Positions 1 to 2,215 of a DNA stretch of 64,000 nucleotides are shown here, piece by piece. The notes below the pieces were generated by a model that made no database searches, had not been told where the DNA came from, and saw only the letters and a list, made by a program, of their open reading frames with translations. The DNA lies in the NCBI RefSeq assembly GCF_017348835.2, contig NZ_CP071375.1; one strand, 5' to 3'. The DNA is from Escherichia coli (GTDB taxonomy: Bacteria > Pseudomonadota > Gammaproteobacteria > Enterobacterales > Enterobacteriaceae). A program made the position numbers and the translations under genes. Numbering within the stretch: position 1 is the stretch's first letter; each line of letters begins with the position of its first letter.

Positions 1-21
1 CATGAGCGTAAAGCCAGCTGA
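1..21 (+). CDS. ribB: 3' end of ribB (3,4-dihydroxy-2-butanone 4-phosphate synthase), partial, runs off window start
   Basis: Final codons read H-E-R-K-A-S-stop, matching the remembered RibB C-terminus; a hairpin terminator follows; position next to zupT fits K-12 synteny. Confidence 0.45.
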   Translation, partial: HERKAS

Positions 22-53
22 AAACCGCTGCTTAAATTACTGCCTTAATCAAG

Positions 54-88
54 AAACCGAAGTTGTAGCAGGCTTCGGTTTTTATTTT
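54..88 (+). terminator. Rho-independent terminator after ribB
   Basis: Stem aaaccgaag / cttcggttt with T-run (ttttatttttc) directly downstream. Confidence 0.55.
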
Positions 89-258
89 TCCCTGCTATGC
101 AAGATGTTAATTCCGCTTCTCTTTCTATGAGAAAATTTCATTAATATCAGGCATTCTTTTTCATTATGATCAAAATCATATAATTGTTCCGTTATTATGC
201 GACCATATGAATATATCCGAAAAAGGATATGTGAAATTTATGCGCTAAATGTTTAGTA

Positions 259-453
259 TTGTTAAATATTAAGGGTAAAAGGATGTTTATCGCCTGGTAC
301 TGGATTGTATTGATTGCTCTGGTTGTGGTGGGTTATTTCCTGCATTTGAAACGTTATTGTCGGGCGTTTCGCCAGGACAGAGACGCACTGCTTGAAGCGC
401 GGAACAAATACTTAAACAGTACGAGAGAAGAGACAGCCGAAAAGGTAGAATAA
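259..453 (+). CDS. Small hypothetical membrane protein (56-64 aa, start ambiguous)
   Basis: ORF with one strongly hydrophobic helix-like stretch (FIAWYWIVLIALVVVGYFL) followed by a charged tail; followed by a perfect hairpin; not recognised by me as a named gene. Confidence 0.3.
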   Translation: MLNIKGKRMFIAWYWIVLIALVVVGYFLHLKRYCRAFRQDRDALLEARNKYLNSTREETAEKVE

Positions 454-469
454 GGCTTTCGTGAAGCTG

Positions 470-505
470 GCAGAAGTTGTCCATGCGCTGGACAACTTCT
501 GATGT
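470..505. terminator. Bidirectional hairpin terminator between the small ORF and zupT
   Basis: Perfect 13-bp inverted repeat cagaagttgtcca / tggacaacttctg, T-run after it; lies between two convergent stops. Confidence 0.55.
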
Positions 506-510
506 TGTTT

Positions 511-1284
511 TTAACCAATTCCCGCCGTTTGTAGCAGCACTAAACTGAATCCCATCACTGACATTCCACATAGTACGCCATAGCTGGGGTTATTATTAGG
601 GTCAATCTCTTTGGCGAGCGGCATTAATTCATCAACCGAGAGCGCCACCATAATTCCTGCAACCGCCGCCATGATTGCCGCCATGACCACGGGGGAAATC
701 ATGCTACCGAGGATTAACCACGCCAGCACACCACCAAGAATTTCTGCTAGTCCAGAAATCCCCGCCCACAGAATCGCCGTGCGTTTAGACCCCGTTGCTG
801 CGTAAACCGGGCCTGCCACTGCCAGACCTTCAGGAATATTGTGCAACGCTACGGCCAGAGCGATGCCAAATCCCAGCTCCAGGTTGCTGCTCGCCGTGAC
901 AAAGGTGGCAATCCCTTCCGGGAAGTTATGCAGACTGATGCCGAGAGTGAGCAGAATGGCTGTGCGCTTGATCGATTTTGGCAACGGCTGCACCGATTTT
1001 TGCATTAAATCCTGCGGATGCGCATGTGGCAACATGCGGTCCAGGCCAAAATAGCCAAGCAGACCGAAGATAAACATTCCATAACCCAACACAGGCGACA
1101 TTCCTTCAGCTGCTAGTGCGGCAGGAAGCATTTCCATTAATGAGATGAGCAACATGATCCCCGCCGCAAATCCTAGCGAAAACGCCAGTAAGCGGTTCGA
1201 GGGTTTTTGCCCGAGAACGCCGAGAAACGCGCCAATAAACGTGGCTGCCCCCGCCAGTATGGTCAGAATGAGAGGTACTGACAT
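511..1284 (-). CDS. zupT: Zinc transporter ZupT (ZIP family)
   Basis: Translation from [20 protein letters not shown]... (257 aa) matches remembered ZupT; ORF-track start is an upstream in-frame extension. Confidence 0.9.
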
Positions 1285-1399
1285 CGACAACTCCTTATAA
1301 ATCTTCACCTTCAGGCAGATCGTCAAAATAACTGATGATCATCATCATTGTTATCCGGGTTCTTACTCCGCCGAACAAGCGTATTGTGAGGATATCAAA

Positions 1400-2215
1400 A
1401 TGACACCTTTAGTTAAGGATATCATCATGTCTTCAACACGTATGCCAGCATTGTTTTTAGGTCACGGTAGTCCGATGAACGTGCTGGAAGATAATTTGTA
1501 TACCCGCAGCTGGCAGAAGTTGGGGATGACATTGCCACGCCCGCAAGCGATTGTGGTGGTTTCGGCTCACTGGTTTACCCGTGGAACAGGAGTGACCGCG
1601 ATGGAGACGCCGCCCACGATTCATGACTTTGGTGGCTTCCCGCAGGCGCTATACGATACACATTATCCTGCTCCGGGTTCGCCTGCGCTAGCACAGCGTC
1701 TGGTTGAGCTGTTAGCGCCGATCCCGGTGACGCTGGATAAAGAAGCCTGGGGCTTTGACCACGGTTCCTGGGGCGTGCTGATTAAGATGTATCCTGACGC
1801 GGATATCCCGATGGTGCAGTTGAGTATCGACAGTAGCAAACCTGCCGCCTGGCATTTCGAAATGGGGCGCAAACTCGCGGCGCTGCGAGATGAAGGAATA
1901 ATGTTGGTCGCCAGCGGTAACGTGGTGCATAACCTGCGCACAGTGAAGTGGCACGGTGATAGTTCACCGTATCCGTGGGCGACGTCGTTTAATGAGTATG
2001 TGAAAGCGAATCTGACGTGGCAAGGGCCGGTAGAGCAGCATCCTCTGGTGAATTATCTCGACCATGAAGGTGGCGCGTTATCGAACCCAACGCCAGAGCA
2101 CTATCTGCCGTTGTTGTATGTGTTAGGTGCGTGGGATGGGCAGGAGCCAATTACCATTCCGGTCGATGGTATAGAAATGGGCAGTTTAAGTATGCTGTCG
2201 GTGCAGATAGGTTAA
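1400..2215 (+). CDS. ygiD: Extradiol ring-cleavage dioxygenase-like protein YgiD (DODA family)
   Basis: 271-aa ORF with LFLGHGSPMN and dioxygenase class III signature; K-12 synteny; exact start uncertain (alternative ATG at 1427). Confidence 0.85.
   Translation: MTPLVKDIIMSSTRMPALFLGHGSPMNVLEDNLYTRSWQKLGMTLPRPQAIVVVSAHWFTRGTGVTAMETPPTIHDFGGFPQALYDTHYPAPGSPALAQRLVELLAPIPVTLDKEAWGFDHGSWGVLIKMYPDADIPMVQLSIDSSKPAAWHFEMGRKLAALRDEGIMLVASGNVVHNLRTVKWHGDSSPYPWATSFNEYVKANLTWQGPVEQHPLVNYLDHEGGALSNPTPEHYLPLLYVLGAWDGQEPITIPVDGIEMGSLSMLSVQIG

What the first reader, a model, noticed from the sequence alone, without database searches (positions are those of the whole stretch)
259..505. Small hydrophobic ORF with its own perfect terminator between ribB and zupT
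A 56-64 codon ORF encoding one predicted transmembrane helix and a charged C-terminal tail is followed immediately by a perfect 13-bp-stem hairpin. Small membrane proteins are under-annotated. I do not recognise this one, and it may simply be a known small protein whose name I cannot recall.
Basis: seen in the sequence. Interest (0 to 1): 0.2.

Follow-up and report, generated by a model that had tools for sequence, protein, structure and literature searches.

The report
Known small membrane protein gene yqiD

Summary
Window 283-453 (+) holds a 56-codon ORF, or 64 codons from an upstream TTG at 259 that is not the real start. It is followed by a perfect 13-bp hairpin (471-501) and a T-run that reaches the stop codon of the convergent zupT gene.

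The ORF is yqiD (b4756). Its DNA is identical to the E. coli K-12 MG1655 gene, and RefSeq annotates it as "protein YqiD" in the listed genomes that carry this allele. VanOrsdel et al. 2018 (PMC6001520) detected the protein by chromosomal SPA-tag immunoblot and noted it as a positive in a tetracycline ribosome-profiling screen.

The ORF is intact and syntenic (ribB-yqiD-zupT-ygiD) across Escherichia, Salmonella, Citrobacter, Kosakonia and Phytobacter. Codons 1-44 give dN/dS of about 0.05-0.13 between E. coli and the closer genera where dS is measurable, with synonymous sites near saturation. The hairpin keeps its pairing through compensatory changes.

The predicted protein has one N-terminal transmembrane helix (residues 2-22). 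It is followed by a near-invariant basic cytoplasmic motif, KRYCRAFRQDRDALLEAR, and a variable charged tail. It has no solved relative and no family match above threshold, and I found no paper that gives it a function.

My best inference is a single-pass N-out/C-in inner-membrane protein that modulates a larger membrane protein. Verdict: already known, low interest.

The parts
52..93 (+). Intrinsic terminator of the upstream gene ribB (hairpin 52-83 plus T-run). It separates ribB from yqiD.
   Evidence: Terminator scan; ribB ends at window 21. IS200C is inserted right after this T-run in strains XJ34 and XJ6-3.
165..180 (.). Conserved palindrome TATGAT-CAAA-ATCATA, about 117 bp upstream of the yqiD ATG. 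It is a candidate operator and marks the 5' edge of the conserved yqiD module. Its function is inferred, not shown.
   Evidence: Core ATGATC-N3-ATCAT is present in Escherichia, Citrobacter, Salmonella and Intestinirhabdus, with a variant in 'Enterobacter' kpr-6. Homology with the divergent E. coli allele that lies behind a fimbrial island begins here. The pattern ATGAT-N4-ATCAT occurs twice in the 64-kb window against 0.06 expected.
181..282 (+). Conserved promoter and 5' leader region. It contains TATAAT at 179-184, an inverted repeat ATATCC-N6-GGATAT (213-218 / 225-230), the block TAAATGTTTAGTATTGTTAAAT (246-267) and the Shine-Dalgarno AAGGG (271-275). The transcription start was not determined here.
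   Evidence: Multi-genus alignments. The upstream non-coding region was among those cloned into GFP reporter constructs, and natural variants changed yqiD expression consistently across GWAS, promoter model and reporter (bioRxiv 10.1101/2025.06.10.658842). The consensus promoter scan found only a weak site at 141-170.
283..453 (+). yqiD coding sequence (b4756): 56 codons plus stop, product MFIAWYWIVLIALVVVGYFLHLKRYCRAFRQDRDALLEARNKYLNSTREETAEKVE.
   Evidence: Conservation and dN/dS.
471..512 (+). Intrinsic terminator of yqiD: a perfect 13-bp stem (471-483 / 489-501), a 5-nt loop and the T-rich tail ATGTTGTTTTT (502-512). The tail overlaps the zupT stop codon (511-513, minus strand).
   Evidence: On an 8-sequence alignment 96% of cells are paired and 3 pairs show compensatory double changes. 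Different hairpins occupy the same place in the C. freundii group and Salmonella, and there is none where the two genes almost abut.
511..1284 (-). zupT (ZIP-family divalent metal transporter), the convergent neighbour in every locus examined. This is context, not shown to be a functional partner.

Best explanation
Window 283-453 is yqiD, an independently transcribed gene for a 56-residue inner-membrane protein. Shown or read directly: the ORF, its ribosome-binding site, its hairpin terminator, its identity to K-12 b4756, published detection of the protein, and purifying selection on the coding frame. Inferred from sequence: residues 2-22 form one transmembrane helix, with only the initiator Met on the outside and an aromatic belt (W5, Y6, W7) at the periplasmic interface. 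The cluster of five K/R in residues 23-33 puts the C-terminal 34 residues in the cytoplasm (positive-inside rule), giving an N-out/C-in topology. The most conserved segment is not the membrane helix but the juxtamembrane helix KRYCRAFRQDRDALLEAR. That pattern argues for a specific cytoplasmic-face contact rather than a merely hydrophobic peptide. The most likely mode of action, by analogy with characterised E. coli small membrane proteins, is that YqiD binds a larger inner-membrane protein and tunes it. The partner is unknown. The hairpin at 471-501 with its T-run ends the yqiD transcript at the edge of the convergent zupT gene.
For: - **Identity:** the CDS is 100% identical in DNA to NC_000913.3 b4756 yqiD, and listed RefSeq records carrying this allele annotate it as 'protein YqiD'.
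- **Protein made:** it was detected by chromosomal SPA-tag immunoblot and was a positive in tetracycline ribosome profiling (PMC6001520).
- **Own promoter:** the upstream non-coding region was among those cloned into GFP reporter constructs. The gene also stays intact when islands or IS elements separate it from ribB.
- **Selection:** the ORF is intact in all 30 loci from 7 genera. Codons 1-44 give dN/dS of 0.04-0.13 between Escherichia, Citrobacter, Salmonella and Intestinirhabdus with dS above 1, and variable sites by codon position are 22/17/38.
- **Domain pattern:** identity to E. coli is 0.70 in the TM segment, 0.88 in residues 23-40 and 0.32 in the tail. R24, C26, A28, R30, D32, R33, D34 and A35 are invariant in alignment A3.
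- **Structure:** AlphaFold2 predicts one continuous helix over residues 3-55, mean pLDDT 72.8.
- **Terminator:**
Against: - No experiment that I found shows membrane localisation, topology, a partner or a phenotype for YqiD. The full-text search returned only the discovery paper and incidental mentions.
- VanOrsdel et al. note that a mass-spectrometry survey found no peptides for any of their new proteins.
- An SPA tag can stabilise a peptide that is otherwise unstable.
- The model confidence is only moderate, and a single helix says little about function.
- Cys26 is lost in some distant homologues (P0114, P0117, P0120).
- The transcription start and promoter could not be placed from sequence.
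- No hairpin follows the gene in the lineages where yqiD and zupT are only 10-23 nt apart.
Confidence: 0.9

Rival explanations
1. YqiD is an accessory or regulatory subunit of its neighbour, the metal transporter ZupT, or otherwise acts in metal homeostasis.
For: yqiD is convergent with and directly next to zupT in every locus examined. This holds when islands separate it from ribB, and in a metagenomic relative at about 40% identity. Cys26 is invariant in alignment A3 and position 21 is His or Cys in those 21 sequences. A similar conserved palindrome, ATGAT-N4-ATCAT, lies upstream of yqiD and in the zupT-ygiD intergenic region in Escherichia, Citrobacter and Salmonella.
Against: The two genes are convergent and are separate transcription units. 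zupT is reported to be constitutive with no regulator site (Grass 2005 as cited in PMC7567609). The YqiD family is confined to part of the Enterobacteriaceae, whereas ZIP transporters are, from general knowledge, far more widespread. Synteny among such close relatives is weak evidence. The Cys is not kept in distant homologues.
Confidence: 0.1
2. The ORF encodes a type I toxin-like membrane-damaging peptide.
For: It is small, with an N-terminal hydrophobic helix followed by a charged tail. This is the general shape of Hok-, Ldr- and TisB-type toxins (general knowledge).
Against: It is a single-copy, syntenic core gene under strong purifying selection. The protein is detectable in ordinary LB cultures and was seen in ribosome profiling. 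Rfam finds no antitoxin sRNA or any other RNA family here, and there is no PADLOC hit. The most conserved part is the cytoplasmic motif, not the hydrophobic helix.
Confidence: 0.03
3. The hairpin at 471-501 is mainly the terminator of zupT, or a bidirectional terminator, rather than yqiD's own.
For: The hairpin starts 10 nt beyond the zupT stop codon on the minus strand. Convergent gene pairs often share one hairpin (general knowledge).
Against: The T-run lies only on the + strand side (ATGTTGTTTTT). On the minus strand the stem is followed by CCAGCTTCACG, which has no T-run. The scan calls the hairpin only on the + strand.
Confidence: 0.25
4. The ORF is a chance ORF in an AT-rich intergenic region and the hairpin is unrelated.
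For: Six-frame listing finds many short ORFs in this region.
Against: The ORF shows cross-genus conservation, a codon-position substitution pattern, low dN/dS, published immunoblot detection and a ribosome-profiling signal.
Confidence: 0.01

Closest known systems
YqiD (b4756, YP_009518818.1 / WP_000469266.1) of E. coli K-12
   Same: The DNA and protein sequences are identical, and the position between ribB and zupT is the same.
   Different: Nothing differs. This is the same gene.
Proteins that source databases label 'DUF4051 domain-containing protein' (Salmonella, Citrobacter, Kosakonia, Phytobacter)
   Same: They are orthologues of 56-74 aa with the same TM helix, the same RAFRQDRDA motif and the same locus.
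   Different: The Pfam-A copy available here returned no DUF4051 model for any of 21 family members. The label therefore rests on the sources' annotation only. The C-terminal tails differ in length and sequence.
Characterised E. coli small inner-membrane regulators such as AcrZ, MgtS, MgrB and CydX (comparison from general knowledge)
   Same: They are single-pass helices under about 60 aa, encoded by short genes that were overlooked for a long time. This is the basis for the proposed mode of action.
   Different: There is no sequence similarity and no known partner for YqiD. Here the conserved determinant is a cytoplasmic juxtamembrane helix. This is an analogy only, not membership.
Pfam DUF2621 (PF11084), DUF4381, DUF6526; NCBIfam NF038143
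   Same: These are weak sub-threshold matches over the TM-plus-charged-helix region. The best is E = 8e-4 at 19.8 bits against a cut-off of 27.7.
   Different: All are below the curated cut-offs, and each covers only about a third or less of a 139-197-position profile. They most likely reflect composition.

Membership tests
E. coli yqiD / YqiD | Sequence identity to the named K-12 gene product | tested here: met
   171/171 nt and 56/56 aa are identical to b4756. The protein is identical to the sequence printed in PMC6001520.
E. coli yqiD / YqiD | Genomic position between ribB and zupT, same strand as ribB and convergent with zupT | tested here: met
E. coli yqiD / YqiD | The protein is actually synthesised | not testable with these tools
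   Taken from the literature: SPA-tag immunoblot and a tetracycline ribosome-profiling positive (PMC6001520).
DUF4051 (label used by UniRef/NCBI for homologues) | Match to the family's profile above threshold | tested here: inconclusive
   No DUF4051 model was returned by the Pfam-A copy used here for any of 21 members. Orthologues carry the label in source databases.
Single-pass small inner-membrane protein (N-out/C-in) | One hydrophobic segment long enough to span the bilayer | tested here: met
   Residues 2-20 have mean Kyte-Doolittle hydropathy 2.43. AlphaFold2 predicts a helix over residues 3-55.
Single-pass small inner-membrane protein (N-out/C-in) | Positive-inside charge bias that defines the topology | tested here: met
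   There are no charged residues before the helix and 5 K/R in residues 23-33 after it. This is a prediction only.
Single-pass small inner-membrane protein (N-out/C-in) | Experimental membrane localisation and topology | not testable with these tools
   No report was found.
Type I toxin-antitoxin toxin | A cognate antisense or overlapping sRNA antitoxin | tested here: not met
   No RNA family reaches its threshold in window 1-1500. This is absence of a known family, not proof that no antisense RNA exists.
Type I toxin-antitoxin toxin | Patchy, often multi-copy distribution | tested here: not met
   There is one copy per genome (median 1) in 5424 of 5426 E. coli genomes, at a fixed locus.
Rho-independent (intrinsic) terminator | G+C-containing stem-loop directly followed by a T-run on the transcribed strand | tested here: met
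   The stem has 13 bp (6 G-C pairs) and a 5-nt loop, followed by ATGTTGTTTTT. Pairing is kept through compensatory changes.
Rho-independent (intrinsic) terminator | Transcript 3' ends mapped at the T-run | not tested
   No 3'-end mapping data could be reached with these tools.

The most novel reading that the evidence does not exclude
YqiD is co-regulated with, or acts on, its neighbours zupT and ygiD. The link would be the shared and conserved ATGATC-N3-ATCAT palindrome found upstream of yqiD and in the zupT-ygiD intergenic region. This would define a small, undescribed regulon, with YqiD's conserved cytoplasmic helix (Cys26 is invariant among the closer homologues) tuning metal transport at the membrane.
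Probability: 0.08. Interest if true: 0.4.

Novelty: already known. Interest (0 to 1): 0.12.

Why it matters
The gene is annotated and its protein has been detected, so the finding adds nothing new to the catalogue. What stays open is the function. YqiD is a core, single-copy gene of the Escherichia, Salmonella and Citrobacter group with a strikingly conserved cytoplasmic motif, and no partner or phenotype has been reported in the literature I could search. The conservation map made here shows which residues to mutate: W5, R24, C26 and R30 to A35. It also shows which upstream elements to test in a reporter. That makes a functional study straightforward, but it is a modest question.

Tried and rejected
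- **Family assignment:** Pfam, NCBIfam and PADLOC scans gave only sub-threshold, composition-like matches or nothing. I did not file the protein under any of them.
- **Solved structures:** a profile search of all PDB chains at E <= 10 gave no hit.
- **Remote homologues:** an exhaustive profile search of 1.84 billion representatives gave only 20 clusters, and every cluster that carries an organism name is from Enterobacteriaceae.
- **Fold search:** not run, because a single helix gives meaningless matches.
- **Known RNAs:** Rfam at E <= 1 gave only chance-level hits, including STnc240 at 28 bits against a cut-off of 55 on the ribB terminator.
- **5' leader structure:** the consensus fold is weak (-4 kcal/mol, no covarying pairs) and the single-sequence z-score is -1.3. 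I rejected it as a structured RNA element, apart from the short inverted repeat at 213-230.
- **Promoter:** the consensus scan and manual inspection did not settle the -35, the -10 or the transcription start.
- **Supplementary data:** none is held for the NAD-cap paper or for VanOrsdel et al.. Neither the id tried for Weaver et al. 2019 nor the one tried for Thomason et al. 2015 is held.
- **Palindrome identity:** the 14-mer appears in no paper. I considered the YhaJ box for the second palindrome and rejected it, because the published mutation positions place that box at window ~1375-1387. The resemblances to FNR/CRP spacing and to the Fur 19-mer (12/19 and 14/19) were counted by hand and are not established.
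- **B. subtilis yqiD:** the papers that mention it concern an unrelated gene, the ispA homologue.

Full report
**What is in the sequence.**

The window starts inside the 3' end of ribB, whose stop codon is at 19-21. The ribB terminator follows (hairpin 52-83 plus a T-run). After about 200 bp of AT-rich spacer comes a + strand ORF. The mechanical ORF list reports it as 259..453, 64 aa from a TTG. Inside it, ATG 283 gives 56 aa: MFIAWYWIVLIALVVVGYFLHLKRYCRAFRQDRDALLEARNKYLNSTREETAEKVE.

Eighteen bases after the stop codon is a perfect 13-bp stem (471-483 / 489-501) with a 5-nt loop, followed by ATGTTGTTTTT. This region folds at -27.6 kcal/mol, z = -4.17 against shuffles. The T-run runs into the stop codon of the convergent zupT gene (511-513, minus strand).

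**What it is.**

A megablast of window 1-1400 against 5,426 complete E. coli genomes matched 5,425 of them. The records listed with this allele annotate the ORF as "yqiD: protein YqiD". In K-12 MG1655 it is b4756 (YP_009518818.1, 3183381-3183551, minus strand). The window's coding sequence is identical to it at all 171 nucleotides.

The gene was defined by VanOrsdel et al. 2018 (Proteomics; PMC6001520). They put an SPA tag on the chromosomal ORF and detected the protein by immunoblot in LB cultures. They list YqiD with exactly this 56-aa sequence between zupT and ribB.

**Start codon.**

ATG 283 is the start, not TTG 259, for three reasons:
- Protein conservation begins at the ATG.
- A conserved AAGGG lies 7 nt upstream of it.
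- Several relatives have one extra A between the TTG and the ATG, which breaks the longer frame.

**Conservation tests.**

A scan of one genome per species found 30 loci with an intact orthologous ORF of 56-70 aa. They come from Escherichia, Citrobacter, Salmonella, Intestinirhabdus, an 'Enterobacter' isolate, Phytobacter and Kosakonia. In every locus the gene is convergent with zupT, with ygiD beyond it. ribB lies upstream in most. In a dozen loci ribB is more than 2.5 kb away or cut off by the contig end, which suggests inserted DNA in between. A metagenomic relative at about 40% identity still sits in the order ubiK-ribB-yqiD-zupT-ygiD.

Nei-Gojobori estimates on codons 1-44 give dN/dS of 0.04-0.13 between Escherichia, Citrobacter, Salmonella and Intestinirhabdus. 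Synonymous sites are near or at saturation in these comparisons. Variable sites by codon position are 22, 17 and 38.

The family is narrow. An exhaustive profile search of 1.84 billion cluster representatives returned 20 clusters, and every cluster that carries an organism name is from Enterobacteriaceae.

**The protein.**

- Residues 2-20 are the hydropathy maximum (mean Kyte-Doolittle 2.43).
- Nothing charged precedes the helix, and five K/R fall in residues 23-33. The positive-inside rule therefore predicts N-out/C-in.
- AlphaFold2, run with the 21-sequence family alignment, gives one continuous helix over residues 3-55 at mean pLDDT 72.8.
- The juxtamembrane stretch at residues 23-40 is the best conserved part. 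Its identity to E. coli is 0.88, against 0.70 for the membrane helix and 0.32 for the tail.
- R24, C26, A28, R30, D32, R33, D34 and A35 are invariant across the 21 aligned sequences.
- More distant homologues keep (K/R)R..(R/K)A(F/Y/C)R(Q/H)(D/E)R(D/E)A but can lose Cys26.
- The tail evolves much faster: pN is 0.36 against 0.06 in the core.

No Pfam, NCBIfam or PADLOC model reaches its threshold. Some sources label orthologues "DUF4051", but the Pfam copy used here returned no such model. No PDB chain is related at E <= 10.

**How it most likely works.**

Shown: the protein is made, and its frame is under selection. Inferred: it is a single-pass inner-membrane protein that presents a conserved basic helix at the cytoplasmic face of the membrane.

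The specific conservation sits in that helix rather than in the hydrophobic segment. For that reason the best-supported model is a protein-protein contact with a larger membrane protein, as known for other E. coli small membrane proteins (general knowledge). I put about even odds on this mechanistic step. The 0.9 confidence applies to the identity and architecture, not to the mechanism.

I found no paper that reports a function.

**Transcription unit.**

The gene must have its own promoter, because it remains intact where a fimbrial island, an IS1 or an IS200C separates it from ribB. A recent preprint included the yqiD upstream region among its GFP reporter constructs. It found natural variants that change yqiD expression consistently across GWAS, promoter model and reporter.

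I could not place the transcription start from sequence. Conserved upstream elements are:
- the palindrome TATGAT-CAAA-ATCATA (165-180);
- an inverted repeat ATATCC-N6-GGATAT (213-230), kept by compensatory changes in the C. amalonaticus group;
- a conserved block at 246-267.

The leader as a whole has no significant RNA structure.

**Terminator.**

On an alignment of the hairpin from five Escherichia lineages, the divergent E. coli allele and two Citrobacter, 96% of cells pair. Three pairs keep pairing through changes on both sides, and all slid controls fall to 33-52% paired. The C. freundii group and Salmonella carry different hairpins at the same place. Lineages where yqiD and zupT are only 10-23 nt apart have none. 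The T-run is on the yqiD side only, so the hairpin is primarily yqiD's terminator. A partial role for zupT cannot be excluded.

**Rivals.**

- **Chance ORF:** excluded.
- **Type I toxin:** unlikely. The gene is a single-copy, syntenic core gene. Its product is detectable in ordinary cultures. Its most conserved part is cytoplasmic, and no antitoxin-like RNA family is found.
- **Link to ZupT:** suggested only by constant adjacency and a shared palindrome. The convergent arrangement and the reported constitutive zupT promoter count against it.

**Verdict.**

This is an already known, annotated and experimentally supported small-protein gene. The observation and the interpretation are both correct, and the interest is low.

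Noticed in passing
window 165-510; L032 1501-1855; L033: About 990 of 5,424 E. coli genomes carry a very divergent yqiD allele (WP_001296421.1), which RefSeq annotates only as 'hypothetical protein'. It is about 81% identical in DNA, with dS of about 2 against the window allele, while the adjacent zupT differs by dS 0.09 and encodes the identical protein. In the two such genomes examined (ETEC4067 and Z22-2), fimbrial genes lie between ribB and yqiD. Homology resumes exactly at the palindrome (165) and at the zupT stop (511). This looks like an old or foreign haplotype that came in together with the island.
   Followed up: partly
window ~81-86; L034 386-1092: IS200C is inserted immediately after the T-run of the ribB terminator in strains XJ34 and XJ6-3. 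An IS1 lies just upstream of yqiD in strain Z22-2 and replaces the conserved palindrome there. The ribB-yqiD spacer appears to be an insertion hot spot. ribB is also missing within 2.5 kb upstream of yqiD in E. whittamii, several Citrobacter and S. arizonae; in E. albertii and C. portucalensis the contig ends too close to tell.
   Followed up: partly
window 166-179 and 1335-1348: The pattern ATGAT-N4-ATCAT occurs twice in the 64-kb window against 0.06 expected. One copy is upstream of yqiD and one is in the zupT-ygiD divergent intergenic region. Both copies are conserved in Escherichia, Citrobacter and Salmonella. By hand count the second copy matches the 19-bp Fur consensus at 14/19. It is not the published YhaJ box of ygiD, which maps to about 1375-1387. 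No binding protein is known.
   Followed up: partly
window 213-230: The inverted repeat ATATCC-GAAAAA-GGATAT upstream of yqiD is replaced by ATACCT-N6-AGGTAT in the C. amalonaticus group and in Citrobacter sp. NCU1, which is two compensatory changes. It is degenerate in the C. freundii group and in Salmonella. It could be a 5'-terminal mRNA hairpin or a DNA operator.
   Followed up: no
L037 1499-1876 (Logan contig SRR31245077_25353): A 125-aa called ORF (P0118) joins the first ~70 residues of ZupT to the C-terminal part of a YqiD-like protein on one strand, although the two genes are normally convergent. It is probably an assembly chimera or a local inversion.
   Followed up: no
literature: EAEC 042 orf3334 (PMC5570504): A 'DUF4051 family' hypothetical protein of enteroaggregative E. 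coli 042 was one of only 3 of 23 tested genes with higher mRNA in an aar mutant. Aar acts on H-NS-type proteins. The family is single-copy in E. coli, so this is probably the yqiD orthologue, but I did not verify the locus.
   Followed up: no
L001 1-500 vs K-12: In the strain closest to the window (PE164), glgS lies directly next to ubiK. From memory, not checked here, K-12 has the ygiL-yqiGHI fimbrial genes and an IS2 in that interval.
   Followed up: no
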